A stretch of 64,000 nt of DNA from a virus, in the IMG/VR virus record IMGVR_UViG_3300038620_000091; one strand, written 5' to 3'. Below are positions 33,738 to 63,639 of this stretch, in pieces. Position 1 is the first letter of the stretch. Every line of letters begins with the position of its first letter. A program made the position numbers and the translations under genes. The notes under the pieces were generated by a model that saw nothing but the letters and a program-made list of their open reading frames with translations, was not told where the DNA came from and did no database searches.

Positions 33738-33760
33738 CAAACTTGATGCCAAAAAACCCT

Positions 33761-33805
33761 CTTCAAAAAAGCTTCACGGAACGAATCTTGCTTAAGGTTA
33801 TTTAT
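33761..33805 (+). promoter_or_regulatory. repeat plus GGAAC-N16-TATTTAT promoter
   Basis: CTTCAA 33761 and CTTCAC 33772 (11 bp apart); GGAAC 33778; TATTTAT 33799. Confidence 0.55.
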
Positions 33806-33865
33806 ATAAGCGAGTTGACAAAGAAACAGATCATTACTTTTTAACTAAACTAACACATAACAGTT

Positions 33866-34060
33866 ATGGGTACGACACGAAGAAAGCGAATCAAAATCAT
33901 CGAAGGTCCACATTCTGGAAAGACGATGAAGGCAGACCGGGAAATCAATTTTCATTGGAAGGAATCAGAACTTCCACGGGGACAAAAAAGGCGATATGTT
34001 TATGTTGTAGAAGACCCCGATATTCAATTTATTTCCGGCTCGAAGGTTGAAGAGATTTAA
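33866..34060 (+). CDS. small KOW/SH3-like protein between the polymerase halves
   Basis: RIKIIEGPHSGKT resembles a KOW motif; has its own promoter-like site and terminator. Confidence 0.55.
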   Translation: MGTTRRKRIKIIEGPHSGKTMKADREINFHWKESELPRGQKRRYVYVVEDPDIQFISGSKVEEI

Positions 34061-34084
34061 CGAATAGCGTATTGTTTTTATGTG

Positions 34085-34114
34085 GAGGCCGGGGGAAACC
34101 CCGGCCTCTTTATT
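34085..34114 (+). terminator. intrinsic terminator
   Basis: gaggccgggg-gaaa-ccccggcctc followed by tttatt. Confidence 0.8.
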
Positions 34115-34137
34115 GACATTTCAAAAAAGCAAATAAT

Positions 34138-35052
34138 ATGCCAAAAGTTGAAAACGTCGAAAAGATAAGCTCTGGTGGAGAAAATGACACCGACTGGTGT
34201 ACCTATACAGACACAGATAGTGTGTTTTACCCGGCTGCACCCGTGGTTCAAAGGAGAACTCCAACAGCCGATCTTGACGACGAAGACTTCATGACCGAAA
34301 AAATTCTTGAAGTGGCTGAAGAAATGGAGGACTACATCAACGCAAGTTACGACCTTTTTTCAAAACACTTTTTAAACGCCGGAACCGAAGACCACTGGCT
34401 TGAAATCAAGCAGGAGCTTATTGCAAGACGTGGGTTTTGGATTCGAAAGAAACGGTACGCCCAATGGATTATATACGACGAGGGCGACCCGGTTCAAGAG
34501 CCGGATTGGAAGGGGCTTGATGTTGTTCGGTCTGACTTTCCGACCGCATTTAGCGACCACATGGAAGAGGTTTTAATTGACCTTCTTCACGACGAATCGA
34601 AAGAAGACATTGACCAAAAAATTCTTGACTTCAAAGACGAGATTCGGGAGTTGGACCTTTCGGAAATTTCAAATCCAACCGGAGTTTCAAAGATGGACAA
34701 GTATTCGACCGGAGAGTTTGGAGTGCGAAAGAAAGGCACGCCTATTCACGTGAAGGCTTCTTTAGCCTATAACGACTTAATTGACCATTTGGACATTGTT
34801 TCAGAGAAAATTAAGAGCGGCACAAAGATCCGTTGGGTTTACCTTTTGGACAACCCTTACGGGTTTACAGAAATCGCTTACAAGGGCAGCGACGACCCTC
34901 AAGAGATCATCGAGTACATCCACGACTACGTAGATTACGATAAGATGTACGAAAAGTCTTTGAAGTCTAAGCTTGAGGGAATTTACGACGCTATGGGGTG
35001 GGAGTTTCCGAAAAAGAAAAGCGAAGCGATGAACTCTTTTTTTGATCTTTAA
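34138..35052 (+). CDS. family B DNA polymerase, C-terminal part (motif C, thumb)
   Basis: YTDTDSVF, KKRYA, KGLDVVRSD, GTPIHVK. Confidence 0.93.
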   Translation: MPKVENVEKISSGGENDTDWCTYTDTDSVFYPAAPVVQRRTPTADLDDEDFMTEKILEVAEEMEDYINASYDLFSKHFLNAGTEDHWLEIKQELIARRGFWIRKKRYAQWIIYDEGDPVQEPDWKGLDVVRSDFPTAFSDHMEEVLIDLLHDESKEDIDQKILDFKDEIRELDLSEISNPTGVSKMDKYSTGEFGVRKKGTPIHVKASLAYNDLIDHLDIVSEKIKSGTKIRWVYLLDNPYGFTEIAYKGSDDPQEIIEYIHDYVDYDKMYEKSLKSKLEGIYDAMGWEFPKKKSEAMNSFFDL

Positions 35053-44511: not shown

Positions 44512-44706
44512 ATGGTTATCATATTTTTTGACCGCAACAGAGAGTCCAATGAAAAGTATGACAAGTATGCGTCCGATTTAGTAACCGATTCGGTTCGAGC
44601 GGCTCTTCTTAACGTGAAGTCTTGTGAAATAACTAGTCAAGACTCTGTTTTTTCATATCCGGGATGCTTTGAAAAAAAACTTGAAAGGCGTGTTAAAGAG
44701 CTATGA
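44512..44706 (+). CDS. small hypothetical protein
   Basis: MVIIFFDRN... Confidence 0.5.
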   Translation: MVIIFFDRNRESNEKYDKYASDLVTDSVRAALLNVKSCEITSQDSVFSYPGCFEKKLERRVKEL

Positions 44707-45146
44707 GAGAATTTGACCACGAAGATCAAATATCAGATAAATCACCAACGGTTCTTCAAGACGTGGAGTCCGGGGACTTTATTGAGTTTAAGTATTTGAA
44801 ATCCTCTGGAAAAACCGAGACTAGAAAGGTGATTGTGCTTGAAAAAAACGTCGATTCTAAACTTCACGGAATTGATATAAAGTATATTTCAGAGCAAGAG
44901 ATTTTAGATTTGGTCTTGACCGCGTTTGGGTTTTTACCGGACAACGTTTCAGACACGCTTGAAGGTTTTCTTCCGGTTTTGGACCTCTTTATTCCAAACC
45001 CAAGGTCTTTTTACGATAGCGTGATTGTAAGTTTTGGGTTCGAGCAAAATCCGTACCGGACATTTGATCTTCGAAACATGTCCGGTATTCAATCGTTTGT
45101 GTACACAACAAGTCTTACAGATCAAATTGACCGCGTTGTAGAGTAG
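44703..45146 (+). CDS. hypothetical protein, paralog of the 190..684 cargo
   Basis: GDFIEFKY, LHGIDIKY, FYDS, YRTF. Confidence 0.6.
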   Translation: MREFDHEDQISDKSPTVLQDVESGDFIEFKYLKSSGKTETRKVIVLEKNVDSKLHGIDIKYISEQEILDLVLTAFGFLPDNVSDTLEGFLPVLDLFIPNPRSFYDSVIVSFGFEQNPYRTFDLRNMSGIQSFVYTTSLTDQIDRVVE

Positions 45147-45192
45147 CAACGCCAGTCTTTATTCACTTACTAAAATTTAATGTTACACACGT

Positions 45193-45897
45193 ATGTTCCA
45201 CTATATTGTACCTGCAAGAGAGGGATCAAAAGGTTTTCCGAATAAAAATCGGAAGCTTGTCCCGATCATCAAAGAAAAATTTCCACGTAGAGTTTTAAGC
45301 CGAATCATTGTGACAACAGACGACCCGAAAATTCAAGAGTTCGTTCGTGAAAGCCGGATGAAGCTTGTCGAACGCCCCAAAGAACTTGCACAGGATGAAA
45401 CAAGTATAAAGCCTGTAATCGAACACGTCTTTTCAAAGTTTGATTTCTACGACAACGACGACATTGTTCTTTTGTACCCTACCTACCCGGAGCGTGAATA
45501 CAAGCGAGACGTTCGAAGTATCCTTGGCTTTTACAAAAAGAACCAAGCTTCTTCCCTTCTTTGCCTGCAGCCCCCGACCGAAGACACGTATTCACATCTT
45601 ATGATGCGTCTTGATTCAGATACGATGAAGGCGCGTCACGTTTTTCCATCTGAAAGGGGGAAGTTTCGTAGGCAAGAGGCAAAGGGGAAGCTCAAAGACC
45701 TTGACTTTGAAATCCATTCCGGAGAAAACGTCTACGAGTACAGCCATTTTGTATCTGTATTTCGGGTGGACGAACTTGATTCTCTAAATAAAAACCTCTA
45801 TAACAAAGATACTATATATTACCGACTAAACAACAGAGTTATTGACGTAGACACAAAAGAAGATTGGAGGCAATATCAAGAAAAAGTGAATGATTAA
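45193..45897 (+). CDS. neuA: acylneuraminate (CMP-nonulosonate) cytidylyltransferase
   Basis: PAREGSKGFPNKN, VTTDD, RPKELAQD, LLYPTYP.R, IDVDTKED. Confidence 0.9.
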   Translation: MFHYIVPAREGSKGFPNKNRKLVPIIKEKFPRRVLSRIIVTTDDPKIQEFVRESRMKLVERPKELAQDETSIKPVIEHVFSKFDFYDNDDIVLLYPTYPEREYKRDVRSILGFYKKNQASSLLCLQPPTEDTYSHLMMRLDSDTMKARHVFPSERGKFRRQEAKGKLKDLDFEIHSGENVYEYSHFVSVFRVDELDSLNKNLYNKDTIYYRLNNRVIDVDTKEDWRQYQEKVND

Positions 45898-46531
45898 GCG
45901 GCAACCCAAACCCCACCAACGCATATTCAAAGATAAAACAGTTAGCTTCACTGATTGTGCGGTGGTGGGAAATAGCGGAATCCTTTCCGGTTCTGGAAAT
46001 GGAGAAGAAATTGACAGCCATGAATGTGTTGTTCGGATGAACGCCGCAGAAGTGAAAGGACATAAAGAAGACGTTGGATCAAAAACGACGTTTCGGCTTG
46101 TCAACGGGCTTCTTCAGCAGGGAAAAACGCTTAACTACACGTCTACGCCTTCAAACTGGCTTAAAACGCTTAGAAATCAAAATTTGATATTCGTCCCCGT
46201 TAACGAAAGGTCTTTAAACGTTGCTCGAAATTTAACGCATAGTTCAAATACGATTTACGAGCTTACTGAAGAATTTAAAGAATATATTTCAAAAGATGTA
46301 AAACACAAGTTAAATAGACACCCTTCAACCGGAATGTTTGCTTGTCTTACGTTTTCTTGCCTTTGCGAGCATGTTACGCTTTACGGATTTGGGTTTCACC
46401 AAGAAAAAGTTGAAAACCGCCATTATTGGGAACAATGGAGCGACCACCACGACGGTTCTCATACGTGGGATAAAGAAGAAGAAGTTGTGAACAGGTTTTG
46501 CGAGTCTAATCAATTTGATATTGTGAAATAA
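45890..46531 (+). CDS. GT29 sialyltransferase
   Basis: Sialylmotif L CAVVGNSGIL...EIDSHECVVRMN.A..G...DVGSKTT; motif S PSTG...C..V.LYGF; motif III HYW; motif VS H.W..E. Confidence 0.9.
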   Translation: MIKRQPKPHQRIFKDKTVSFTDCAVVGNSGILSGSGNGEEIDSHECVVRMNAAEVKGHKEDVGSKTTFRLVNGLLQQGKTLNYTSTPSNWLKTLRNQNLIFVPVNERSLNVARNLTHSSNTIYELTEEFKEYISKDVKHKLNRHPSTGMFACLTFSCLCEHVTLYGFGFHQEKVENRHYWEQWSDHHDGSHTWDKEEEVVNRFCESNQFDIVK

Positions 46532-46537
46532 ATCAAA

Positions 46538-47194
46538 ATGCCAAAAGGAATTTCAACGTATTTTCAATCTAAGTTCAACTACACGATCCCTTCATCTGTG
46601 GCGATTGTTGGGAACTCCGGCGTTGTGTTAGAAAACACACTTGGAAGCGAAATTGACGACCATGATTGGGTTTTAAGGTTCAACGGTGCAGAGGTAGAGG
46701 GGTACGAAAAGCACGTTGGGTCGAAGACGACGTTTCGGTGTTTAAACTCCGTAATGCATTTAGGACACGGAATTAACGCCTCTGAAACAACTAAAGAGGA
46801 TATGGCCCGAATCACGGACGGAGAACGTCTTATATTCAAACCCTCTGGATCAAAACGCAGAAAACGGGCAGTTGAATTTTATGAAGATGTGGCAAACGAG
46901 CTTTTGTTTTTAAACAATAGAATTTATTCTCTGTCAAAACGTAAGCTTCGAAAGTATAACACTCACGGGCAAGCGAGTCTTGGACTTTTAATGACGATTC
47001 TGTTAAGCGAGTGTTCTGGAAGTGACGTAGAGATTGATCTTTATGGTTTTGGTTTTCACATGAAGTCAGACGTGGAAAAAAGACATTATTTTGAAGAGTT
47101 GGATCAAGACATTTCCGGGCCACACGACTACAGCGCAGAGAAGAAACTTATGAAACGAATGCAACAACAAGATAAAATTCAAATCAAATACTAG
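46538..47194 (+). CDS. GT29 sialyltransferase (second copy)
   Basis: VAIVGNSG...EIDDHDWVLRFN.A...Y...VGSKTT; SLG...LYGF; HYF; HDY..E. Confidence 0.88.
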   Translation: MPKGISTYFQSKFNYTIPSSVAIVGNSGVVLENTLGSEIDDHDWVLRFNGAEVEGYEKHVGSKTTFRCLNSVMHLGHGINASETTKEDMARITDGERLIFKPSGSKRRKRAVEFYEDVANELLFLNNRIYSLSKRKLRKYNTHGQASLGLLMTILLSECSGSDVEIDLYGFGFHMKSDVEKRHYFEELDQDISGPHDYSAEKKLMKRMQQQDKIQIKY

Positions 47195-47244
47195 TGTTAC
47201 ACAGGTTTTGAAGAACAAACTACCAAGATATTATTAAAAGTAAC

Positions 47245-48174
47245 GTGAACACACTTTACACATATGACGACGTAAAAAACCAAACCGACTCTTTTTTAAA
47301 ATCAACAGATAAACGTCAAGTTACGCCGAAAAACGTAACTTCGGTTGGCGAAATCGGAATCAACCACAACGGAGACGTAGACACCGCGAAAAAGTTAATT
47401 GATGTGTCTGAAACGTGTGGGTTTGATTTTGTGAAGTTTCAAAAAAGAACACCGGAAGTTTGCGTCCCCGAATGGAAAAAAAGCCAGCTTCGCCAAACCC
47501 CATTTGAAGAGGACCCTATCCCGTACATTAAGTACAAAGAGTATATCGAGTTTGGCAAGGAAGAGTTTGAAGAACTTTTTCGGTATGTCCGGGACTTGGA
47601 TGTTTCCATTTTCTCTAGCGTATGGGACACCGAAAGTGTTGACTTTATGGCCCAATACACGGACATAGGCAAAATTCCATCTGCACATCTTACAAACAAA
47701 AAGCTTACCGAATACGCAAGAGAAAAGTTTGACTTTCTCATTGTCTCAACGGGAATGTCAACTGAGCGGGAAATTCAAGAAAGCATCTGGAACTGCGACC
47801 CGGACGTTGTTATGCATTCGGTTTCAAGCTACCCGACAAAAGCAGAAAATCTTCAACTTCAATACATCCGACACCTAAAGAGAACACTTCAACAGATGTA
47901 CGGAACGGGTCACGGTAAAGAGCTTGGGTACTCCGGGCATGAAACCGAACTTGAAACCGCAGCAGTAGCCGTTGCCTTGGGATCGAAGTGGATGGAACGC
48001 CACGTGACCTTAGACAGAGATATGTGGGGGAGCGACCAGTTTGCTTCTTTGGAGCCGGATGAAATGTATCGGCTTATTGAAATTCTTGTGAATACAGAAA
48101 AAAGTCTGTCCGGGAACTCGCCAAGAACGCTCCTAGATGAAGAAAAAGAAAAGAGAAAGGATCTTAGAAAATGA
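47245..48174 (+). CDS. neuB: N-acetylneuraminate/nonulosonate(-9-phosphate) synthase
   Basis: EIGINHNGD, VKFQKR, SVWD, KIPSA, STGMST, H..SSYP, GYSGHE, ERHVTLDR..WGSD. Confidence 0.93.
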   Translation: MNTLYTYDDVKNQTDSFLKSTDKRQVTPKNVTSVGEIGINHNGDVDTAKKLIDVSETCGFDFVKFQKRTPEVCVPEWKKSQLRQTPFEEDPIPYIKYKEYIEFGKEEFEELFRYVRDLDVSIFSSVWDTESVDFMAQYTDIGKIPSAHLTNKKLTEYAREKFDFLIVSTGMSTEREIQESIWNCDPDVVMHSVSSYPTKAENLQLQYIRHLKRTLQQMYGTGHGKELGYSGHETELETAAVAVALGSKWMERHVTLDRDMWGSDQFASLEPDEMYRLIEILVNTEKSLSGNSPRTLLDEEKEKRKDLRK

Positions 48175-48542
48175 ACTCACAGCCTAAAGAGAAAAACTAT
48201 CACGTAAGCGAAGGAAACGGTCTTTACTTAGAAATTGACCGTTTTCTTAAAAGCGACGGAACCCCAAAAGACGTGTCCGAGTGGAACTTTTTTGTCCGGA
48301 TAAAAAGAAGAAGATCCGATGAAACTAGCCTCCTTGAATGTAGCATAGAAAACGGCAGACTTTCTTTAGATGAAGATTCTTCAGAAGTCAAGTTCAACCT
48401 TGCTCCGGAAGACGTACAAGTTATATCACCGGGAAAATCGGTTTACGACCTTAGAGTAGACGTTCCTTCCGAAGAAAACTCTCGTTTTCCGGTTGAAGGA
48501 GAAATCATTATACAAGATCGAATTAGCAAAAAAGAAGTATGA
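48171..48542 (+). CDS. BppU-N-like virion structural domain protein
   Basis: G.......DGTP.DVS.W.....IK...YDL.....VEG.I.I pattern typical of phage tail and baseplate adaptor domains. Confidence 0.55.
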   Translation: MNSQPKEKNYHVSEGNGLYLEIDRFLKSDGTPKDVSEWNFFVRIKRRRSDETSLLECSIENGRLSLDEDSSEVKFNLAPEDVQVISPGKSVYDLRVDVPSEENSRFPVEGEIIIQDRISKKEV

Positions 48543-49042
48543 GAATCGAAGAAAGATTGATTTCAGATTGGGAATGTGGGCAAGTTGACAGCCCGAAAAG
48601 CCACCCGTCAAACGGAAAGAAAAAACGAACCTTATGTGAAGACTATACACACGTTTTTCCCCTCTTAAATGGGCAGAAGGCAAAACTTACGGTTCCGGAA
48701 GGTTATGAATATGAAATGAGCATCCCAAGGCCCGTTCAACCTTTGAAGGTACTTCTTTTTGACTATTACGCTTTAGAAGGTTCTGTGGTGGCTCACGACT
48801 GGATTTATAAAAACAAAGGGGAAGTTACCTATCAAGTTAAAGAACCCTCTGTGAACCCGTCTGTTGGATTTGCAGAAACAACTAGCTGGAAGCAAATTAA
48901 GGGTGGGCGTTTGACTCAAAAACAGGCAGACCTTGTATTGGTTTCAGACCCGAAAGATTCAGAATATCTTCGGTGGACCGCGTACAGGCTTGCTAGAGTT
49001 TTTGGAAAGGTTGCTTGGAAAGATATAATTGAGGAGGTTTGA
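48539..49042 (+). CDS. DUF1353-like protein
   Basis: TVPEGY....SIPR, AHDWIY, ADLV, R.FG. Confidence 0.65.
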   Translation: MRIEERLISDWECGQVDSPKSHPSNGKKKRTLCEDYTHVFPLLNGQKAKLTVPEGYEYEMSIPRPVQPLKVLLFDYYALEGSVVAHDWIYKNKGEVTYQVKEPSVNPSVGFAETTSWKQIKGGRLTQKQADLVLVSDPKDSEYLRWTAYRLARVFGKVAWKDIIEEV

Positions 49043-49070
49043 TTAAGCACAAACCAAAGACGAAACGATT

Positions 49071-49694
49071 ATGAAGACTTTGATTGCCGCATCCGGAGAC
49101 ACCTTATTAGATGATAAAAATGGAGACGTGATTGACAGCTTCAATCACGTCATTCGATTTAAGGGGTTTGAAAAAGGAATTTTTGAAAATGAAGACCGTG
49201 TTGGCTCGAAGGTAGATTCGATATCTTTTAACACGAATATATATACCCTTCGAGACATGAAAAAGAAGTTCGACCAAAACTACTTTAAAGAGAAGTTTGG
49301 AAGTGTTTACTTTTTAATGACGTGGACTCACAAATCCAGTCTTCGTAGGGGTCTTCACATGCTTAAAAGAAAAATGGGAGATCAGTTTGAAACGATCAAT
49401 TACAATAGAGTAAAAAAACACGTTTATCGGTGCAACCGAAAAAACAATCTGGGGATGCATAAACGAAAAGATTTTTCATCTGGTCTTATCATTGTGTCTC
49501 ACTGCATAATGGACGACAGATATCAAAACGTGTACGTCACCGGATTTGATAGCTTGACCGAAACTGGAGACACGGGTGTTCACTACTACGACGATAGCGC
49601 CTCCGAAAATACATTGGACCGGATTCATGACCTAGAAAACGAAGCAAAAGTTATTCAGCATTGGATTGATGAAGGAACGATAAACCACTTGTGA
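49071..49694 (+). CDS. divergent GT29-like glycosyltransferase (third copy)
   Basis: G..IDSFNHVIRF, VGSK.D, SSGL, V.GFD, HYY, HDL..E. Confidence 0.75.
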   Translation: MKTLIAASGDTLLDDKNGDVIDSFNHVIRFKGFEKGIFENEDRVGSKVDSISFNTNIYTLRDMKKKFDQNYFKEKFGSVYFLMTWTHKSSLRRGLHMLKRKMGDQFETINYNRVKKHVYRCNRKNNLGMHKRKDFSSGLIIVSHCIMDDRYQNVYVTGFDSLTETGDTGVHYYDDSASENTLDRIHDLENEAKVIQHWIDEGTINHL

Positions 49695-49695
49695 C

Positions 49696-50475
49696 ATGAA
49701 ACTTGCACTTTCTTATTCTGCATTTGATGGAATTGAGCTTTTAAAGTATTCGATTCTTTCTGTCCAAAACCACGTAGATTATATTAACGTTGTATATCAA
49801 ACCGAATCTTACTATGGGCAAGGCATCCGAGAAGTAGATAAAAAACGGTTGAAAACTCTAAGAAAAGAGGGGTTTGTTGATAAGTTGATTAAGATGAACC
49901 CAAAAGACACCGGAACTGTGGACATAGCCAAGGGTCATGAAAAAAAGAAACGAATGGCCGGAATTGAAGACTGCCTAGAAAACGGCTGTACGCATTTTGT
50001 GTCTATGGATGTAGACGAATTTTACAGGACCCGCGAGTTTGAATGGGCAAAGAGGCAAGTAAAAAACCGGACGCTGCCTCTTACCGCCTGTAAAATCAAA
50101 AACTACTGGAATCTTCCCATTTATCAAAAGGAAGGGTACTCTGAAGGTGGGCGTTTTCATGTTCCATTCATTTGCGAAATTAATCAAAATACCAAAATAG
50201 CAAACGATTTCTTTTGTAAGGTGGACCCTACTAGAAAAATTAAAAATACCGAAGACAACGTAGGACATCTTTTTCATCCTGAAGATGTTCATATGCATCA
50301 CATGAAGAACGTTCGAGAAAACCTTCTCTGGAAGTATAAAAACACGTCAAGAAGAAGACTAGACCGCTCGAATCTTGTTGGAAAGGTCCGAAACATCAAA
50401 AATTGGAAGCCCTCTCCCGGAGACGGTCAAGTTGTGGACAACTACTTTAATATTCCATTGGACATGTTTCAATAA
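49696..50475 (+). CDS. GT-A fold glycosyltransferase
   Basis: YSAFDG.ELL..SI, KR..G, MDVDEFY (DxD), MHHM..VR. Confidence 0.75.
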   Translation: MKLALSYSAFDGIELLKYSILSVQNHVDYINVVYQTESYYGQGIREVDKKRLKTLRKEGFVDKLIKMNPKDTGTVDIAKGHEKKKRMAGIEDCLENGCTHFVSMDVDEFYRTREFEWAKRQVKNRTLPLTACKIKNYWNLPIYQKEGYSEGGRFHVPFICEINQNTKIANDFFCKVDPTRKIKNTEDNVGHLFHPEDVHMHHMKNVRENLLWKYKNTSRRRLDRSNLVGKVRNIKNWKPSPGDGQVVDNYFNIPLDMFQ

Positions 50476-50712
50476 ATGACTAATCGGTTATCACTTCACA
50501 CCCGATGCTTTCCGAACTTTTCAACGGATCTTTCAAAACTTGAAGCGATTAGTAGGTATTGGGACATGTATTACGAGCGTGTTGAAAAGCTCGGCTATGC
50601 CGATTAGATTCGAACCGAAGACTTGAATGACCCGGATCGAATGAAGAAAGCTTTGAAATCTCTTGGTTTTGAAGACCCCACCGTCAACGAGCATCATAAA
50701 AACCAGTATTAA
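50476..50712 (+). pseudogene. short ORF interrupted by an in-frame TAG (50605)
   Basis: Reads ...CFPNF...EAISRYWDMYYERVEKLGYAD*IRTEDLND...LKSLGF...; fills the gap between two glycosyltransferase genes exactly. Confidence 0.45.
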
Positions 50713-50715
50713 AGA

Positions 50716-51366
50716 ATGTTCAAAACATTTTGTATTGCGAGTGATAAAGATTTCAGGCTTCAACAAAAAAAGTTTCCGTTTGATCTTTTGCAGTGGGAAC
50801 CCGTAGACGTGGTTGAAAACCCCGAAGACGTTCGGGTGCAAACGGCGCTGTCGAAAGTCAAAAATCCCAATTATGAAGATTCAAAGAAAGGTAGAGCAGG
50901 GGCGGCGATTGCCCACCTTTCTCTTTGGATGCATGTTCAAAGTATGGAAGTACCAGTTTTGGTCTTAGAAGACGATGCGGTTCCGCTTGTTAAAGGGCTT
51001 GAAGACAAGATTGAAAGCATTTTAACCCGGCTTCCAGACGGGGATTTTTACAACCTGTTTGCCCGAAGACCGAATCCAAACCACGATTTGCTTGAAGACG
51101 ACCCTAAGAAAATAAAGCCTGCGTACTCTAGTCCATCAAGTTATTCAAAGAAGCCAAACGTAGGTTTCGTGGCTTACGTGATTCGCCCGTCCGGGGCAAA
51201 AAAGCTTATCGAAAGGTTGCGTACACTGGATTTAAACCAGCACATCGATTGGTGGTGCTCGGAACAAACGGACGAACATATTCGTATGTATGTGCAGAAG
51301 CTAAAAACGATGTTCGGACATGATGGTTCTGTAGAAAGCATGAGAAAGCGTTTAAACGGATTTTAG
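50716..51366 (+). CDS. GT25-family glycosyltransferase
   Basis: G...AHL.LW, VLVLEDDA, AYVI...GAKKL, IDW. Confidence 0.8.
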   Translation: MFKTFCIASDKDFRLQQKKFPFDLLQWEPVDVVENPEDVRVQTALSKVKNPNYEDSKKGRAGAAIAHLSLWMHVQSMEVPVLVLEDDAVPLVKGLEDKIESILTRLPDGDFYNLFARRPNPNHDLLEDDPKKIKPAYSSPSSYSKKPNVGFVAYVIRPSGAKKLIERLRTLDLNQHIDWWCSEQTDEHIRMYVQKLKTMFGHDGSVESMRKRLNGF

Positions 51367-51368
51367 AT

Positions 51369-51704
51369 ATGGACGTATATGTAGACATTGATAACGTAAT
51401 TTGTGAAGGTAGAGGCCAAACAGAAGGCCCTGAAGACTATTCATACGAAAGCGCGGTTCCAATCGAGGAAAACATCAAAAAGATCAACCAAATCTACGAA
51501 GACGGTCATACCGTTGTTTATTGGACCGCAAGAGGAACAAAGACCGGGAAAAACTGGAGGCCCCTTACAGAACGCCAACTTCAAAGGTGGGGGTGTAAAT
51601 ACGACGAGTTAAAAATGGGCAAACCCGCTTTTGACGTATTTGTTGACGACAAGGCGTTTAACGCCGAAAGATTTGATGAATTTATAAACTACACACGGCA
51701 GTAG
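51369..51704 (+). CDS. HAD-superfamily phosphatase (capless)
   Basis: VDIDNVIC, YWTARG, MGKP..D.FVDDKA. Confidence 0.88.
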   Translation: MDVYVDIDNVICEGRGQTEGPEDYSYESAVPIEENIKKINQIYEDGHTVVYWTARGTKTGKNWRPLTERQLQRWGCKYDELKMGKPAFDVFVDDKAFNAERFDEFINYTRQ

Positions 51705-51705
51705 C

Positions 51706-52299
51706 ATGAAAACCCCGAAACAAAAGCTTAAAGAAGCGTTTCCTTTCTCTTTCCTTTTTTGGGCGAAAGATAAAATCGCTCATTTGTATGAAAATGTCAA
51801 GACCTCTTCTGTGTTTAAAACTCTGTTCTCTAGCGAGCGGTTTGTGAACTCAGAGCGAAGAAAACCAATCAAACGAGTAAAAGACAAATACAACGTTGAA
51901 GTCCGGCCTTCTCCGGAAGAGGACGGGCAGATGATTGTTATGCTTGAACCGAAAGAGGGGGACCGGATCATGGAAGAATACGACAGTATGAAAACAAAAA
52001 ACCCAAATAGAGACTTTTATCAAAACAAAGCCAAATCAAACAAAATGACGTATTACATCGAACTTGAGGGTGAAATTGTTGAAGAAAGTCAAGACCTGTT
52101 TCAAAACCGATACGAGCTTTGCGAGGAAGCGTTCGGAACGGTGTACATGAAACAGGGGATGCAGATCCTTCACACGATTATCGAAAAGCATGAAGAAGAG
52201 TACAAAGACAAGGTTAAAATCATGAACGACCAAGCAGAGCGGGTAAGTTTTGACGACTTTTCAAAAATGCTTGAAAACTCGAATGTCAGGCAAAACTAA
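51706..52299 (+). CDS. hypothetical protein
   Basis: ORF in operon context. Confidence 0.55.
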   Translation: MKTPKQKLKEAFPFSFLFWAKDKIAHLYENVKTSSVFKTLFSSERFVNSERRKPIKRVKDKYNVEVRPSPEEDGQMIVMLEPKEGDRIMEEYDSMKTKNPNRDFYQNKAKSNKMTYYIELEGEIVEESQDLFQNRYELCEEAFGTVYMKQGMQILHTIIEKHEEEYKDKVKIMNDQAERVSFDDFSKMLENSNVRQN

Positions 52300-52347
52300 G
52301 ATATATATGTTATGCATGAATGTCGTATAAATTAGTAACAAAAACAG

Positions 52348-53136
52348 ATGAAAAGAAGACGTTTAACAGAAGATACAGATAACAGGCCAAAAGATGAAGA
52401 CCTCTGGCAAGACGTGCTTGCCGTAACCAAGGGCGAAAAAAACTCCGTGTCCCGAACTGTGGACGGGGAGGAAGTAACCGTCGAGGCCCCAAACGACGGG
52501 GATGGATTTGACGTTTACCCTTGCGTCCCCCTTGACAGTCAAGCCTTGACTCGCGAAGGTTGGAAAGCCCATGACCGAATTGAAATTGGCGATGAAATTT
52601 TGGCTTATGATATAGATGAAAATGTGCTTTCATGGAGCAAAGTTGAAGATAAACATAGATTCGAAGATGCTCCGATAAAGCGCATGTCAAAAGACAGGGT
52701 AAGTTTTGATGTTCGCTGCACTCCGGGGCACAAGTGGGTTGCCTTTCGAAAAAACAAGTTTGAAGACCGAAGGCTCATTGAAACGTCTGAGCTTCCAACG
52801 AGCTACAACCTTTTAACATCTGCGAAGCTTTCGGAAAGTGTTGAAGGAGAAGCCCTTGAAGAATTATCAAGTTTTGACGTAGAGCGCCGCCACCGAGGTT
52901 TACAAAACATGCACATTGAAGACGACGGAAGAGAAGATGTTTGGTGCCCACAGACTGAACACGGAACGTGGGTTATGCGTCAAGGGTCAACAGTAACAAT
53001 TACCGGAAATTCCGCTTACGCTAATGGTTGGGCTGTTCAAAGGTACGAAGAACTTGGGGGCGAGTGGGAAACCGTTGAAGAACAAATGCTTCGGAAGGTG
53101 GTCCGTGAAGAAATCAAAAGGCAAATCGGCAAGTAG
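52348..53136 (+). CDS. intein-containing conserved phage protein with leader-like C-terminus
   Basis: Exteins join as FDVYP|SAYANGWAVQRYEELGGEW; ends EEQMLRKVVREEIKRQI. Confidence 0.8.
   Translation: MKRRRLTEDTDNRPKDEDLWQDVLAVTKGEKNSVSRTVDGEEVTVEAPNDGDGFDVYPCVPLDSQALTREGWKAHDRIEIGDEILAYDIDENVLSWSKVEDKHRFEDAPIKRMSKDRVSFDVRCTPGHKWVAFRKNKFEDRRLIETSELPTSYNLLTSAKLSESVEGEALEELSSFDVERRHRGLQNMHIEDDGREDVWCPQTEHGTWVMRQGSTVTITGNSAYANGWAVQRYEELGGEWETVEEQMLRKVVREEIKRQIGK
52522..53010 (+). mobile_element. mini-intein (163 aa, no endonuclease)
   Basis: Block A CVPLDSQALT; block B CTPGHKW; block F VWCPQT; block G TITGN followed by Ser+1. Confidence 0.9.
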
Positions 53137-53141
53137 CAGTT

Positions 53142-53867
53142 ATGGGAATCTTAGGCGAAAAAGACGGTCTTGACACGTGGTTTGACTCTAGCAAAGGGGG
53201 TGGAACGTGGGTTGATATATCCCGGACAAACGACGACGGTTCTCACCCTGAATGTGGAGAGAACACAGAAAAGAAAGGTTATCCAAAATGCGTTCCGAAA
53301 AAGAAAGCGGATCAAATGACAAAAAAAGAAAAAGAGCGTTTGGTTCGCCGGAAAAGACGTAAAAACAACGACAACAAGCAAGATCCAGACATGGTAAGTT
53401 CAGATCCAAGCGACCAAAGAAAATCCGAGTCCGTTATTCGCACTTTCATTCGAAATCAAATTCGAGAAGACGTTGACACGTTCAAGTCTGTTTCTCGAAT
53501 GTTAAACGAAGATGAAGATTTGGATAACTGGTTCGATGAGGAAAATTGGGTAGATATTTCAAGAACCGTTGACGGAGAGCACCCGCCGTGTGGAGCGTCA
53601 AGCGACGACGAAGATAGAGAAGACAATCCGGAACACGAGTACCCAAAATGCGTTCCAAAATCAAAGGCAGAAAAACTTTCTGACGAAGAAAAAGAAGAGC
53701 TTGTTAGAAAGAAACGTCAATCTGTAAAATCCGACGACGCGGATCAAAGCTCCGAAGACGGGGATTCCGACGAACCAACATACACGTCAAGTGACCCGGA
53801 CGAAGACGAAAAAAACGAATCGCTTCGAACATTCATTCGTAAAGAAATTCATAAAGCCTTAAACTAA
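53142..53867 (+). CDS. tandem-domain conserved phage protein
   Basis: Two copies of LD.WFD...WVDISRT.DG.HP.CG...YPKCVPK.KA...LVR.KR, each followed by ES.(I/L)RTFIR. Confidence 0.75.
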   Translation: MGILGEKDGLDTWFDSSKGGGTWVDISRTNDDGSHPECGENTEKKGYPKCVPKKKADQMTKKEKERLVRRKRRKNNDNKQDPDMVSSDPSDQRKSESVIRTFIRNQIREDVDTFKSVSRMLNEDEDLDNWFDEENWVDISRTVDGEHPPCGASSDDEDREDNPEHEYPKCVPKSKAEKLSDEEKEELVRKKRQSVKSDDADQSSEDGDSDEPTYTSSDPDEDEKNESLRTFIRKEIHKALN

Positions 53868-55561: not shown

Positions 55562-56476
55562 ATGAACATTGTTGATAAGCAGTATACAGACCTAATTCAA
55601 AAAATTATCCAAACGGGAACAGACAAAGAAGACCGAACAGGAACAGGAACCCGTTCGGTTTTCGGCCACCAAATGAGGTTCCCGGTTTCAACAGACAACT
55701 TTCCAATTGTTACAGTTAAAGAAACAAAGTTTCGAAGCTTAGTTCACGAGCTTATATGGTTTCTTCGGGGGGAAGAATCCATCAAGTACCTTGTTGAAAA
55801 CGAAGTTGGAATTTGGGACGAGTGGGCAGACGAAGATGGAAATGTTGGCCCGTTGTACGGCGTTCAATGGAGAAAGTGGGAAGACAAGGACGGAAACCGC
55901 ATTGACCAGCTTCAAAACGTTATTGACAATATCAACTCCAACCCGGACAGTAGAAGACACGTCGTTTCCGCTTGGAACGCAGGGAAGCTCGAAGACATGA
56001 ACCTATTTCCTTGCCACATCATGTTTCAATTCTACAGCCGAACGCTTTCTTTTCAAGAGCGGGTAACGGCACTTGAAGAAGAGGTTTTAGGTGGCCCGTG
56101 CAGCAAACCCGTTAACGAGTCTGTTCTTCAAACATACGACGTTCCAAAAAGGGCGCTGGACTGCCAGATTTACATTCGGTCCAACGACACGTTTTTGGGC
56201 CTTCCATTTAACATTTCCTCCTATTCTCTTCTTACAATCATGGTTTCGCGGCTTACCGGACACGTTCCCGGCGAACTTGTCTATACAATTGGGGACGCGC
56301 ATTTGTATAAAAATCACTTCGAGCCTGCCGTTGAAATGATGAACCGAAAAAGCTATTCCCTCCCCTCTCTTGAAGTTTCCGAAGGTCAAACGTCGATTGA
56401 CGACTTTGAGTTTGAAGATTTTAATCTAAAAGGGTACGAAAGCGGAAGTTGGATCAAGGCCCCGATTGCGGTATGA
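55562..56476 (+). CDS. thyA: thymidylate synthase
   Basis: DRTGTGT, ELIWFL, GPLYGVQWR, PDSRR, PCH, RSND.FLGLPFN, GDAHLY.NH. Confidence 0.96.
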   Translation: MNIVDKQYTDLIQKIIQTGTDKEDRTGTGTRSVFGHQMRFPVSTDNFPIVTVKETKFRSLVHELIWFLRGEESIKYLVENEVGIWDEWADEDGNVGPLYGVQWRKWEDKDGNRIDQLQNVIDNINSNPDSRRHVVSAWNAGKLEDMNLFPCHIMFQFYSRTLSFQERVTALEEEVLGGPCSKPVNESVLQTYDVPKRALDCQIYIRSNDTFLGLPFNISSYSLLTIMVSRLTGHVPGELVYTIGDAHLYKNHFEPAVEMMNRKSYSLPSLEVSEGQTSIDDFEFEDFNLKGYESGSWIKAPIAV

Positions 56477-62440: not shown

Positions 62441-62929
62441 ATGGTTACACAAATTGTTGCATTTGACGAAGACCGGGGCATTGGAAAAACCGGACACGGG
62501 ATTCCGTGGAGCTACCCGAAAGACCTATCTTGGTTTCGGTTTCACACGACTGGGGGCAGGTGCGCTGTTGGCAGAAAAACATTTGAAAACATGGGTGCTC
62601 TTCCGAATCGCTCGTTTTTCGTTTTAACTCGAAATCCAAGGTCAAAGTCCAATAAAAACGAAAACGTTCGTTACCTCACTTTAGAGCAGCTAAGGTCTCT
62701 CTCCGACCGATATCACAATCTTTACATCTGCGGTGGATCATCTATTTATAGACAGACGGTAGACCGTCTCACGGATCAAATCATCGTTACACGAATTCCC
62801 GGAACGCACGGCTGCGACGTTTTCTACCCGGAGATCCCCGGTAGATTTCAAAAGCAGGCGACGTTTGAAACGCAAGCGCAAGACGGAACCGGAACATTAA
62901 CCTTTGAAAAGTGGATTGACAAAACGTAA
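62441..62929 (+). CDS. folA: dihydrofolate reductase
   Basis: IVA....GIG...IPW..P.DL.WF...T, GRKTFE...LPNR, GG..IY, D.FYP. Confidence 0.93.
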   Translation: MVTQIVAFDEDRGIGKTGHGIPWSYPKDLSWFRFHTTGGRCAVGRKTFENMGALPNRSFFVLTRNPRSKSNKNENVRYLTLEQLRSLSDRYHNLYICGGSSIYRQTVDRLTDQIIVTRIPGTHGCDVFYPEIPGRFQKQATFETQAQDGTGTLTFEKWIDKT

Positions 62930-63639
62930 TGGCAATTGTATCTAGAGTATCGCGGTCACAACCAAATGAAGACTTGGAAGGGTTTGAACTTCTTCCGTCT
63001 GATTTTGGGCAGATCAAAGATATTATTGACGTTGACACCGATCCGGGAAACAACAACGAATACCAAGTAACTGTTCAGCCCGGAAATTATAGCGGTATTA
63101 CCGGAATCAACGTCCCAAGTTATGTTAACGTTGTTGTTCTTCCGGGAGCAGAGTTTGACGACGGAGCGTTTACCGGATCTACCGAAAACGTGGTGGATCT
63201 AAACAAACTTGCAGGCTCGAACTTCTCTCTTCCAGACGATCTAACAGTTAACGGAAATTTAACCGTTCAAAACAACACATCGAGTAACGAATCCACTTTT
63301 GAAAAAAATCTTCGGGTAAAAGAGACGTTAACTGTTGACGACAACATCACATGTAATTCTCTTACCGAACTTTCAAGAAGAGACTTAAAGAAAGATATAA
63401 GTCCGCTTAACGGAGAACTTAAAAAGATTCGAAATTTAAACCCGGTAAATTTTACATGGAAAGAAAATGGGGAGAAAAGTAAAGGTCTTATTGCCGAAGA
63501 AGTCAACGACGTGTACCCGGAATTTGTGACCAAAGATGAAGATGGAAACCCCCTAGGCGTCCAGTACTCAAAACTTACATCCGTTCTTATAGAGGCGGTT
63601 CAAGAGCTAGATAAAAAGTTGCAACAGGTTACTTCATAG
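62929..63639 (+). CDS. short fibre-like protein with C-terminal intramolecular chaperone (peptidase S74)
   Basis: S...LKKDI...L.PV.F.WK...GLIAEEV..VYPE.V...V.Y..L...LIEAVQEL. Confidence 0.8.
   Translation: MAIVSRVSRSQPNEDLEGFELLPSDFGQIKDIIDVDTDPGNNNEYQVTVQPGNYSGITGINVPSYVNVVVLPGAEFDDGAFTGSTENVVDLNKLAGSNFSLPDDLTVNGNLTVQNNTSSNESTFEKNLRVKETLTVDDNITCNSLTELSRRDLKKDISPLNGELKKIRNLNPVNFTWKENGEKSKGLIAEEVNDVYPEFVTKDEDGNPLGVQYSKLTSVLIEAVQELDKKLQQVTS

What the first reader, a model, noticed from the sequence alone, without database searches (positions are those of the whole stretch)
45193..51704. Phage-encoded sialylation pathway with three GT29-like sialyltransferases
Seen: a NeuB synthase, a HAD phosphatase, a NeuA CMP-transferase, two GT29 enzymes with clear L/S/III/VS sialylmotifs plus a divergent third, and GT-A and GT25 enzymes in one cluster. 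Known: GT29 is mainly a eukaryotic family, while bacterial sialyltransferases are usually GT38/42/52/80. No NeuC epimerase is in the window; synthase plus phosphatase plus CMP-transferase matches the KDN route from mannose-6-phosphate described in Bacteroides. Inference: the phage builds a nonulosonate-capped glycan on its virion (charge shielding in brine, or protection), on the host surface (receptor masking), or on DNA. The GT29 proteins lack membrane anchors, which favours a cytoplasmic acceptor such as virion proteins.
Basis: partly seen in the sequence, partly recalled or inferred. Interest (0 to 1): 0.82.

Follow-up and report, generated by a model that had tools for sequence, protein, structure and literature searches.

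The report
Phage sialic-acid-type sugar island, three GT29s
An uncultured T4-like phage carries a tight gene cluster that should make, activate and attach a sialic-acid-like nine-carbon sugar, using three small soluble relatives of animal sialyltransferases. Such enzymes are not described in phages in the papers I could search, and what the sugar is attached to is still unknown.

Summary
Between 45193 and 51704, all on the + strand and tightly packed, lie these genes:
- a CMP-nonulosonate synthetase;
- two clear GT29 genes and one divergent GT29 gene;
- a NeuB-family synthase without a SAF domain;
- a GT-A fold transferase;
- a GT25 transferase;
- a 111-aa capless HAD phosphatase.

The window is a T4-like phage (gp32, UvsX, gp41, gp43, gp44/62, tape measure).

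The module is not a one-off. About 497 IMG/VR viral contigs encode this short NeuB. In the best 80 loci, the HAD occurs in 66, the CMP-transferase in 66 and a GT29 in 22. The HAD often abuts NeuB, and in one contig it is fused to the CMP-transferase.

That coupling supports a 9-phosphate route. With no NeuC or aminotransferase in the window, KDN made from mannose-6-phosphate is the leading guess but is unproven.

The three GT29s belong to three old, separately conserved clades. They have no membrane anchor, and two of them lack the "essential" disulfide.

The acceptor is unresolved. I lean towards a host envelope glycan over virion proteins; DNA is unlikely.

Bacterial GT29s (2018) and phage neuA/neuB (2013, 2019) are already published. 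I found no paper on phage GT29. This scan has already reported the same module in at least 13 other genomes.

The parts
44703..45146 (+). Conserved 147-aa ORF of unknown function, directly upstream of the cluster. Flank; membership of the cluster is uncertain.
   Evidence: Orthologues lie at the same position in L002 (95% identity) and L004 (34%). It is a weak paralogue of window 190-684 in the tail region. No Pfam hit.
45193..45897 (+). CMP-nonulosonate synthetase (NeuA/CTP_transf_3 family).
   Evidence: Pfam PF02348 at 32.2 bits, above the 22.6 cut-off. PseF model 48 bits, below its equivalog cut-off. Full-length alignment to CMP-Neu5Ac synthetase 6ifd, E 3e-9, with the N-terminal AR.GSKG..NKN motif.
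45890..46531 (+). GT29a: minimal (213 aa) soluble protein of the sialyltransferase family. It has all four sialylmotifs and both motif cysteines.
   Evidence: PF00777 E 4e-38. Pig ST3Gal-I 2wnb E 4e-18. Motif residues; Cys23 and Cys159 kept. No transmembrane segment.
46538..47194 (+). GT29b: second paralogue (218 aa, 32% identical to GT29a). Motifs are intact, but both disulfide cysteines are lost.
   Evidence: PF00777 E 4e-29. Separate clade with L002 and P0018, support 100. Cysteine columns read V and S.
47245..48174 (+). NeuB-family nonulosonate synthase (309 aa from a GTG start) with no SAF domain. Probably a 9-phosphate synthase.
   Evidence: PF03102 E 2e-53. TIGR03569 171 bits and PseI 134 bits, both far below their equivalog cut-offs. 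Best PDB match is the SAF-less Leptospira NeuB 6ncs. 7951 homologues; the top 120 are all 268-309 aa.
48171..48542 (+). Small LtfC-like beta-sandwich protein (phrog_1084), embedded in the cluster.
   Evidence: phrog_1084 E 2e-10. Atlas structural neighbours at TM 0.72-0.78 are phage proteins, some LtfC-like. An orthologue lies between NeuB and GT29c in L004.
48539..49042 (+). DUF1353-like protein matching a family labelled 'tail assembly chaperone'. Specific to this window, and possibly an insertion.
   Evidence: phrog_1158 E 2e-9. DUF1353 E 0.004, below the cut-off. No orthologue in L004.
49071..49694 (+). GT29c: divergent third paralogue (207 aa). Motifs S, III and VS are kept; motif L is altered (GNSG reads ASGD, RxN reads RFK).
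   Evidence: PF00777 29.8 bits, above the 23 cut-off. Clade with L004 and P0343, support 100. H178, Y179, H191 and E196 kept; N28S and N51K changed.
49696..50475 (+). GT-A fold glycosyltransferase (259 aa) of a phage and bacterial family with no Pfam model.
   Evidence: AlphaFold pLDDT 93.6. Foldseek matches SunS/ThuS, SpsA and ColGalT1, E 1e-6 to 3e-5. D105, D107 and E108 are invariant in 30 homologues. 176 homologues, some beside NeuB in a T4-like phage and some in a bacterial polysaccharide locus.
50716..51366 (+). GT25-family glycosyltransferase (216 aa).
   Evidence: PF01755 28.7 bits, above the 24 cut-off. phrog_854 'glucosyltransferase' E 7e-7.
51369..51704 (+). Capless 111-aa HAD phosphatase, the constant partner of this NeuB type. 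Proposed nonulosonate-9-phosphate phosphatase.
   Evidence: Motifs I-IV invariant. Model pLDDT 86. Best PDB matches are 1xpj and phage HY126 AfhF, a sugar terminal-phosphate phosphatase, TM 0.75-0.78. Found in 66 of 80 viral NeuB loci, abutting NeuB in about 26.
51706..52299 (+). Conserved 197-aa ORF of unknown function that follows the HAD gene.
   Evidence: Orthologues follow the HAD gene in L004 (33% identity) and partly in L001. No family hit.

Best explanation
The cluster is a self-contained, cytoplasmic pathway that the phage runs in the infected cell.

Proposed steps:
1. The SAF-less NeuB-type synthase condenses PEP with a 6-phosphorylated hexose taken from host metabolism. Mannose-6-phosphate, giving KDN-9-P, is the most likely substrate (about 45%); ManNAc-6-P, giving Neu5Ac-9-P, is next.
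2. The small HAD phosphatase removes the terminal phosphate.
3. The CTP_transf_3 enzyme makes the CMP-sugar.
4. Three anciently diverged, soluble, minimal GT29 enzymes transfer it. They presumably act at different positions or with different linkages, onto a glycan whose underlying residues are added by the GT-A and GT25 enzymes.

What is shown: the gene identities, intact catalytic motifs, operon-like packing, and recurrence of the NeuB-HAD-CMP-transferase(-GT29) set in hundreds of viral contigs.

What is inferred: the 9-phosphate route, the identity of the sugar, and the order of transfers.

The acceptor is not shown. I favour a host envelope glycoconjugate assembled on the cytoplasmic face, such as an LPS/LOS core, capsule or S-layer glycan precursor (about 45%). 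This would change the infected cell's surface. Glycosylation of the phage's own virion proteins comes second (about 30-35%).
For: Gene identities and motifs.

Packing: overlaps of 8, 4 and 4 nt, and gaps of 1-50 nt apart from one of 240 nt.

Synteny with four other phage contigs, including the 484-kb LR756508.

Marine phage contigs with NeuB-CTP_transf_3-GT29 next to the clamp loader and PD-(D/E)XK nuclease.

Census: 497 IMG/VR contigs carry this NeuB. Of the best 80 loci, 66 have the HAD, 66 the CMP-transferase, 59 both, and 22 a GT29. The HAD lies within -3 to +12 nt of NeuB in about 26 loci. A CTP_transf_3-HAD fusion protein is encoded at L072:2724-3725.

The nearest characterised relative of the HAD, AfhF, removes the terminal C5 phosphate of a sugar bisphosphate in a phage sugar-nucleotide pathway (PMC13326640).

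The precedent for synthase + phosphatase + CMP-synthetase is the KDN route in B. thetaiotaomicron and Prymnesium, where bacteria using unphosphorylated ManNAc need no phosphatase (PMC6200933).

No NeuC, DegT or GMD homologue is in the 64-kb window. None of NeuC or DegT is found anywhere in the 484-kb relative LR756508.

For a host-envelope acceptor: the cluster lies in the replication module between the clamp loader/MazG/nuclease and ThyA/DHFR. GT25 is an LPS/LOS family. Host surface modification is the reading given in the literature for such phage genes (PMC7029224; bioRxiv 10.1101/655167).
Against: - No enzyme of this version has been assayed.
- NeuB scores far below the NeuB/LegI and PseI equivalog cut-offs, so its substrate cannot be read from known families.
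- The HAD is not a KdsC/BT1713-type KDN-9-P phosphatase: YrbI 1k1e is only rank 24, TM 0.40.
- The same NeuB-HAD pair occurs beside NeuC-like epimerases in 13 of 14 such loci, and beside DegT/GMD genes in a 96%-complete T4-like phage. So the pair does not by itself imply KDN.
- About 160 kb of this phage's genome cannot be seen.
- The cluster has no flippase, polymerase, lipid-carrier transferase or exporter, so a host-surface product would depend wholly on host machinery.
- An LtfC-like protein and a gene of a family labelled 'tail assembly chaperone' sit inside the cluster, which points towards the virion instead.
Confidence: 0.55

Rival explanations
1. The same pathway is used, but the glycan is put on the phage's own virion proteins (capsid, tail fibre or decoration proteins) in the cytoplasm before lysis. 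This happens in some mycobacteriophages and giant viruses.
For: - All enzymes are soluble, and the cluster has no export or lipid-carrier genes.
- An LtfC-like beta-sandwich gene (conserved at the same place in L004) and a DUF1353 gene of a family labelled 'tail assembly chaperone' lie between NeuB and GT29c.
- The best fold matches of the GT-A enzyme are the peptide glycosyltransferases SunS/ThuS, though only at TM 0.5.
- Related islands carry sulfo-, fucosyl-, methyl- and pyruvyl-transferases, a variety reminiscent of giant-virus capsid glycans (my own knowledge).
Against: - The cluster lies in the replication/nucleotide module, not next to structural genes.
- No acceptor protein has been identified.
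- The tail-related genes may be unrelated insertions; the DUF1353 gene is absent from L004.
- The SunS match is weak and reflects the general GT-A fold.
Confidence: 0.3
2. The sugar is not KDN. It is Neu5Ac or another nonulosonate made from a precursor that the host, or unseen phage genes, supply. The HAD then acts on Neu5Ac-9-P or on a precursor sugar phosphate.
For: - NeuB scores higher on the NeuB/LegI model than on PseI, but matches neither at equivalog level.
- 13 loci pair this NeuB-HAD with a NeuC-like epimerase.
- A Lake Biwa phage is annotated with neuA, neuB and neuC.
- Only 64 kb of about 223 kb is visible.
Against: - No NeuC, DegT or GMD homologue is in the window.
- The 484-kb relative has no NeuC or DegT anywhere.
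- 22 of the 80 loci have NeuB-HAD-CMP-transferase with none of these genes within 10 kb.
- Mannose-6-phosphate is available in any host, whereas ManNAc-6-P is not (established biochemistry).
Confidence: 0.35
3. The glycan is attached to phage DNA as a base hypermodification. This would be like glucosyl-hmC in T4, or arabinosyl-5-hydroxycytosine in RB69 and HY126.
For: - The cluster sits among nucleotide-metabolism genes (MazG, PD-(D/E)XK nuclease, ThyA, DHFR).
- The HAD's closest characterised relative works in a DNA arabinosylation pathway (PMC13326640).
Against: - ThyA is canonical: NF002497 scores 364 bits, above the 327 cut-off. No hydroxymethylase or hydroxylase homologue was seen in the window.
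- Known DNA glycosyltransferases use UDP-sugars (PMC13326640). None is GT29 or GT25 (my own knowledge).
- Related islands carry sulfotransferases, GT10 and pyruvyl transferases, which suggests a complex surface-type glycan.
Confidence: 0.06
4. Some or all of the three GT29s do not transfer the NeuB product. They would transfer another CMP-activated ulosonic acid such as Kdo, as is proposed for plant GT29 proteins. GT29c might be non-catalytic.
For: - GT29c has lost the Asn of GNSG and the Asn of RxN in motif L. From memory of the ST3Gal-I structure, these residues contact the CMP ribose.
- Plant GT29 proteins occur without sialic acid (PMC10225777 states that plants lack Sia).
- L003 has three or four GT29s but no NeuB within 20 kb.
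Against: - GT29 genes abut the CMP-transferase and NeuB here and in L002, L004, L005 and L008.
- 21 of the 22 GT29-bearing viral loci also have the HAD and the CMP-transferase.
- The catalytic His and Glu of motif VS and the His-Tyr of motif III are kept in all three.
- No KdsA or KdsB was seen.
Confidence: 0.1

Closest known systems
Bacterial GT29 sialyltransferase-like proteins (Petit et al. 2018, Sci Rep 8:2946, PMC5811610)
   Same: Both are prokaryote-side GT29 proteins with the four sialylmotifs, found mostly in marine organisms. The authors argue they sit near the root of the eukaryotic family.
   Different: Those are 23 sequences from proteobacterial genomes, and the paper makes no mention of phages. 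Here the genes are on T4-like phage contigs, are about 200-220 aa long, and occur in three paralogous clades in one operon with their own donor pathway. I could not compare sequences directly. One pattern scan of 185,579 bacterial and archaeal genomes found no close relative.
Animal Golgi GT29 sialyltransferases (e.g. pig ST3Gal-I, PDB 2wnb)
   Same: Same Pfam family. Motifs L, S, III and VS are shared, including the catalytic His of VS (PMC10225777).
   Different: The phage proteins have no N-terminal membrane anchor or stem. They contain only the core of about 200 residues. The L-S disulfide, described as essential in the animal enzymes, is kept in only 8 of 121 short forms and in one of the three here. 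They are presumably cytoplasmic.
CMP-KDN pathway of Bacteroides thetaiotaomicron and Prymnesium parvum (KDN-9-P synthase, KDN-9-P phosphatase, CMP-KDN synthetase; PMC6200933)
   Same: The same three-enzyme logic, with no NeuC. The synthase is paired with a HAD phosphatase.
   Different: The phosphatase belongs to a different HAD subgroup (1xpj/AfhF-like, 111 aa, capless), not the KdsC type. Substrates are untested. The synthase lacks a SAF domain.
Phage neuA/neuB(/neuC) genes listed as auxiliary metabolic genes (Roux 2013, PMC3877843; Okazaki 2019, bioRxiv 10.1101/655167)
   Same: Nonulosonate synthase and CMP-transferase genes on phage contigs, read in those papers as host surface modification.
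   Different: Those reports are annotation lists. They mention no GT29 transferase, no HAD coupling and no minimal-enzyme family.
Phage HY126 AfhF and RB69 gp51 (D-arabinose-1,5-bisphosphate 5-phosphatase of the arabinosyl-5-hydroxycytosine pathway; PDB 9iqw, PMC13326640)
   Same: The same small capless HAD fold (TM 0.78, 29% identity). Both are phage-encoded and remove a terminal phosphate inside a sugar-nucleotide pathway.
   Different: The pathway and product differ (UDP-arabinose for DNA). Here the partner is NeuB, and no DNA-base-modifying enzyme was seen.

Membership tests
GT29 (Pfam PF00777 / CAZy GT29) | Score above the Pfam gathering cut-off (23 bits) | tested here: met
   131.7, 102.3 and 29.8 bits for 45890, 46538 and 49071.
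GT29 (Pfam PF00777 / CAZy GT29) | Sialylmotifs S, III (His-Tyr) and VS (catalytic His, Glu) | tested here: met
   S146/G148, H178/Y179 and H191/E196 are kept in all three proteins and in 118-121 of 121 short homologues.
GT29 (Pfam PF00777 / CAZy GT29) | Sialylmotif L (GNSG ... ID.HD.V.R.N) | tested here: met
   Met for GT29a and GT29b. GT29c keeps I41, D42 and R49 but reads ASGD for GNSG and K for N51, so for that protein the feature is only partly met.
GT29 (Pfam PF00777 / CAZy GT29) | Conserved Cys pair of motifs L and S (disulfide essential in animal enzymes) | tested here: not met
   Kept in GT29a only. GT29b and GT29c lack both cysteines. 8 of 121 short forms keep both. This feature defines the animal enzymes, not the Pfam family.
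GT29 (Pfam PF00777 / CAZy GT29) | Type II membrane topology (N-terminal anchor plus stem) | tested here: not met
   The proteins start 10-20 residues before motif L. The highest 19-residue hydropathy is 1.29 or less.
GT29 (Pfam PF00777 / CAZy GT29) | Transfers from a CMP-activated nonulosonate | not testable with these tools
   Needs an enzyme assay.
NeuB family (PF03102); classical NeuB/LegI (TIGR03569) or PseI (TIGR03586) | Pfam cut-off; equivalog cut-offs | tested here: inconclusive
   Pfam 181.7 bits, above the 22.1 cut-off. TIGR03569 171 bits against 399.65, and TIGR03586 134 bits against 340.25. It is a family member but not an equivalog of either.
NeuB family (PF03102); classical NeuB/LegI (TIGR03569) or PseI (TIGR03586) | C-terminal SAF (antifreeze-like) domain | tested here: not met
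   The protein ends about 20 residues after the barrel. All 120 best homologues are 268-309 aa. SAF-less NeuBs are known in environmental bacteria (PMC8208679).
CMP-nonulosonate synthetase (PF02348) | Pfam cut-off and full-length alignment to a solved CMP-sialic acid synthetase | tested here: met
   32.2 bits, above the 22.6 cut-off. 6ifd residues 25-243 align to residues 5-231.
HAD phosphatase superfamily | Motifs I (DxDx[TV]), II (T/S), III (K), IV (D/DD) and a Rossmannoid fold | tested here: met
   D6, D8, T53, K85 and D94 are invariant. The fold matches 1xpj, AfhF, T4 Pnkp phosphatase and GmhB.
KdsC-type KDN-9-P / Kdo-8-P phosphatases (BT1713, YrbI) | Closest structural or sequence relatives are KdsC/YrbI | tested here: not met
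   YrbI 1k1e is rank 24, E 0.086, TM 0.40. No KdsC model hit in NCBIfam.
B. thetaiotaomicron-type KDN pathway | Synthase uses Man-6-P; phosphatase uses KDN-9-P; no NeuC | not testable with these tools
   Only the gene content fits. The rest of the genome cannot be seen.
GT25 (PF01755) | Pfam cut-off | tested here: met
   28.7 bits, above the 24 cut-off, over profile positions 65-192 of 199.

The most novel reading that the evidence does not exclude
The minimal, soluble, disulfide-free GT29 enzymes of phages form a large, deep radiation. The few animal and plant representatives I could include nest inside it rather than outside. If so, phages could be a reservoir and vehicle for the sialyltransferase fold between bacteria, algae and early eukaryotes. 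In this phage the three paralogues would then build a KDN-capped, eukaryote-like glycan on the virion itself.
Probability: 0.15. Interest if true: 0.85.

Novelty: new variant of a known kind. Interest (0 to 1): 0.62.

Why it matters
1. Enzyme supply. GT29 sialyltransferases are the enzymes that sialylate animal glycans, and they are notoriously hard to produce because they are disulfide-bonded Golgi membrane proteins (PMC10225777). A natural family of 200-residue, anchor-free, mostly cysteine-independent GT29s that work in a bacterial cytoplasm would be an attractive source of biocatalysts and a minimal model of the fold.

2. Evolution. The family is diverse: 153 clusters at 50% identity score E<=1e-30 against the profile, and most of the best 150 listed are short forms, many on T4-like phage contigs. 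This bears on the debated bacterial origin of eukaryotic sialyltransferases.

3. Ecology. A NeuB-HAD-CMP-transferase module on about 500 IMG/VR contigs means that many aquatic phages make an acidic nine-carbon sugar during infection. Neither the target nor the benefit is known.

Tried and rejected
- Megablast of the cluster against 50,697 phage records: no match.
- PHROGs has no family for the GT29s, NeuB or the CMP-transferase.
- Literature searches for phage GT29 found nothing relevant. The pelagimyophage paper does not mention sialic acid. Sample accessions gave no paper, so the habitat and host remain unknown.
- The search for related loci with the wide GT29 alignment failed for lack of a conserved stretch. 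With the single protein or the narrow alignment it found only 1-2 IMG/VR loci, and nothing in bacterial genomes. That scan used one short pattern, so it says little.
- No whole genome is held for the window. The 223-kb parent contig could not be fetched; one search returned only short or partial copies.
- The promoter and terminator scan of the cluster gave no more sites than shuffled sequence.
- I could not obtain reference sequences of characterised KDN-9-P synthase, NANS, LegI or NeuB, so no substrate-typing tree of NeuB was made. B. thetaiotaomicron only 'rings' as a control without a locus.
It says that GYSGHE / ERHxTLD / GSD resemble the animal 9-phosphate synthases. I could confirm only that the classical enzymes in the PDB read SDH / EKH at these places. 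The NANS side rests on memory.
- The GT29 tree is a quick one with only four eukaryotic rows, two of them fragmentary. I draw no rooted conclusion from it.

Full report
**What the window is.** The 64-kb window is part of a large tailed phage with a T4-type replication apparatus. It encodes a tape measure protein, a UvsX-like recombinase, a gp46/47-like exonuclease, a DnaB/gp41-like helicase, a ribonucleotide reductase, a DNA methyltransferase and a family-B polymerase in two pieces. It also encodes gp32, the clamp loader gp44/gp62, MazG, a PD-(D/E)XK nuclease, ThyA and DHFR. No whole genome is held. One cluster protein is recorded on a contig of 223,357 bp, so roughly 160 kb of this phage cannot be seen. 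The nearest public record is the unannotated 484-kb 'uncultured phage' LR756508.1 (PolB 48% identical). That record has a Gp23-type capsid gene.

**Checking the observation.** From 45193 to 51704 there are ten + strand genes. They have overlaps of 8, 4 and 4 nt and gaps of 1-50 nt, apart from one 240-nt gap before the GT25 gene. Pfam places them as follows:
- CTP_transf_3 (45193);
- GT29 (45890, E 4e-38; 46538, E 4e-29; 49071, E 5e-7, still above the curated cut-off);
- NeuB (47245, E 2e-53);
- GT25 (50716).

The CMP-transferase aligns end to end with Vibrio CMP-Neu5Ac synthetase.

The 259-aa protein at 49696 has no Pfam hit. It folds with pLDDT 93.6 into a GT-A glycosyltransferase. Its best matches are SunS/ThuS, SpsA and ColGalT1, and it has an invariant D-x-D-E.

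The 111-aa protein at 51369 has the four HAD motifs, invariant across 32 homologues. Its model resembles the Vibrio protein 1xpj and phage HY126 AfhF at TM 0.75-0.78.

Two small genes in the middle were not in that list. One is 48171, an LtfC-like beta-sandwich. The other is 48539, a DUF1353 protein of the family phrog_1158, which is labelled 'tail assembly chaperone'.

**The three GT29 proteins.** They are 207-218 residues long and start only 10-20 residues before sialylmotif L. They have no hydrophobic segment, so the anchor and stem of the animal enzymes are absent.

In an alignment of 121 short homologues, these residues are kept in 118-121 rows and in all three window proteins:
- the Arg of motif L;
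- the Gly of motif S;
- the His-Tyr of motif III;
- the His and Glu of motif VS.

The VS histidine is the catalytic base of the family (PMC10225777). The same review describes the Cys pair of motifs L and S as forming a disulfide that holds the animal enzymes in their folded conformation. Only 8 of the 121 short forms keep both cysteines. GT29a does; GT29b and GT29c do not. That fits enzymes working in a reducing cytoplasm.

GT29c also reads ASGD for GNSG and Lys for the Asn of R-x-N. From my memory of the ST3Gal-I structure, these Asn residues touch the CMP ribose. GT29c may therefore bind its donor differently.

In a quick maximum-likelihood tree the three proteins fall into three separate clades, each with orthologues in other contigs (supports 100, 100 and 87-90). 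They are therefore old paralogues kept side by side, which argues for three different specificities.

**How common this is.** A word-based search with GT29a found only 19 relatives. An exhaustive profile search gave 12,319 hits at E<=1e-3 and 153 representatives (50% identity clusters) at E<=1e-30. Most of the best 150 listed are 195-265 residues long.

Context was read for several of them:
- L002 and L004 are syntenic with the window.
- LR756508 carries NeuB, the HAD and four to five GT29s.
- L003 (a 179-kb contig) has three to four GT29s with GT25, GT10, three sulfotransferases, two GDP-mannose-dehydratase-like genes and a methyltransferase.
- L005-L008 are marine contigs with clamp loader, PD-(D/E)XK, GT4, GT2, methyltransferase, NeuB, CTP_transf_3 and GT29.

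The NeuB has 7951 relatives at E<=1e-10. The top 120 are all SAF-less (268-309 aa) and many come from Tara samples.

About 497 IMG/VR contigs encode it. In the 80 best loci (within 10 kb each side) my own profiles found:
- the HAD in 66;
- the CMP-transferase in 66;
- both in 59;
- a GT29 in 22;
- all of these together in 21.

The HAD gene lies within -3 to +12 nt of NeuB in about 26 loci. One contig encodes a CTP_transf_3-HAD fusion protein.

**Which sugar.** Bacteria that make Neu5Ac from unphosphorylated ManNAc need no phosphatase. B. thetaiotaomicron, Prymnesium and animals use a 6-phosphosugar and then remove the 9-phosphate (PMC6200933). The near-constant, often translationally coupled pairing of this NeuB type with a small HAD, and the fusion to the CMP-transferase, are the best evidence for a 9-phosphate route.

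The closest characterised relative of the HAD, AfhF, removes the terminal phosphate of arabinose-1,5-bisphosphate in another phage sugar-nucleotide pathway (PMC13326640). That is the same chemistry on a different sugar.

The window has no homologue of a NeuC-like epimerase, a DegT aminotransferase or a GDP-mannose dehydratase. The 484-kb relative has no NeuC or DegT at all. Mannose-6-phosphate, present in any host, would make the three enzymes self-sufficient, so KDN is my leading guess at about 45%.

It is only a guess, for four reasons:
- NeuB is far below the equivalog cut-offs of NeuB/LegI and PseI.
- The HAD is not of the KdsC/BT1713 type.
- 13 of 14 loci with a NeuC-like gene also keep the HAD.
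- Most of this genome is unseen.

I could confirm only that the classical enzymes in the PDB differ at these places.

**Which acceptor.** Nothing I ran settles this.

For a host envelope glycan:
- The cluster sits in the replication module between the clamp loader and ThyA.
- GT25 is an LPS/LOS family.
- The published reading of phage LPS-type genes is surface alteration of the infected cell.

For virion proteins:
- The cluster has no lipid-carrier, flippase or export gene.
- All enzymes are soluble.
- The LtfC-like gene is conserved inside the cluster in L004.

DNA glycosylation is unlikely. ThyA is canonical, and no base hydroxylase or hydroxymethylase was seen. The accessory enzymes of related islands (sulfo-, fucosyl- and pyruvyl-transferases) suggest a complex surface-type glycan.

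**Comparison with what is known.**
- Bacterial GT29 sequences were reported in 2018: 23 sequences, mostly marine alpha-proteobacteria, with no mention of phages (PMC5811610).
- Phage neuA/neuB(/neuC) appear in lists of auxiliary metabolic genes (PMC3877843; bioRxiv 10.1101/655167).
- I found no paper on GT29 genes in phages.

The find is therefore a new variant of known kinds: a phage-borne, minimal, mostly disulfide-free GT29 branch, here in three paralogues, wired to a NeuB-HAD-CMP-transferase donor pathway. This scan has already reported the same kind of module in at least 13 other genomes. The present window adds three things: the three-paralogue arrangement, the census of HAD coupling, and the AfhF link.

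**Verdict.** Interest is moderate to high for glycobiology (enzyme source, origin of sialyltransferases) and for phage ecology. The sugar's identity and the acceptor still need experiments.

Noticed in passing
L072:2724-3725: A 333-aa protein on an IMG/VR contig fuses CTP_transf_3 (residues 4-134) to the small HAD phosphatase. This fusion links the phosphatase to the CMP-nonulosonate synthetase.
   Followed up: partly
L003:3666-20654: A related 179-kb phage contig carries a much larger island. It has three to four GT29s (one of 436 aa), GT25, GT10 (fucosyltransferase family), three sulfotransferases, two GDP-mannose-dehydratase-like genes and a methyltransferase. No NeuB lies within 20 kb.
   Followed up: no
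window 62929-63639: A 236-aa protein ends in a Peptidase_S74 'chaperone of endosialidase' domain (E 5e-12). This is the self-cleaving C-terminal chaperone of tail fibres and spikes. The name is suggestive, but the domain is not specific to sialic acid.
   Followed up: no
window 48171-49042: An LtfC-like beta-sandwich gene and a DUF1353 gene (phrog_1158, labelled 'tail assembly chaperone') sit inside the sugar cluster. The first is conserved at the same place in L004.
   Followed up: partly
window 31569-35052: The family-B DNA polymerase is in two ORFs. 31569-33737 carries most of it, and 34138-35052 still hits DNA_pol_B (E 3e-6). This agrees with another first-stage note on this window.
   Followed up: no
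window 44703-45146 and 190-684: The conserved 147-aa ORF just upstream of the cluster is a weak paralogue (23% identity, E 1e-7) of an ORF in the tail region.
   Followed up: no
window 55562-56476: ThyA is 304 aa with an internal insertion relative to the 264-aa models. It still scores above the thymidylate synthase equivalog cut-off.
   Followed up: partly
L011:3966-11513: A T4-like phage contig (Gp23, prohead protease) has CTP_transf_3, GT8, two pyruvyl transferases, a homologue of the window's GT-A protein, NeuB and the HAD, but no GT29. A different, unidentified transferase may therefore attach the sugar in many phages.
   Followed up: no
window 45170-53142 (gene starts): None of the cluster's genes has a recognisable Shine-Dalgarno sequence in the 20 nt upstream. 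These stretches are A-rich instead. This may hint at the host group.
   Followed up: no
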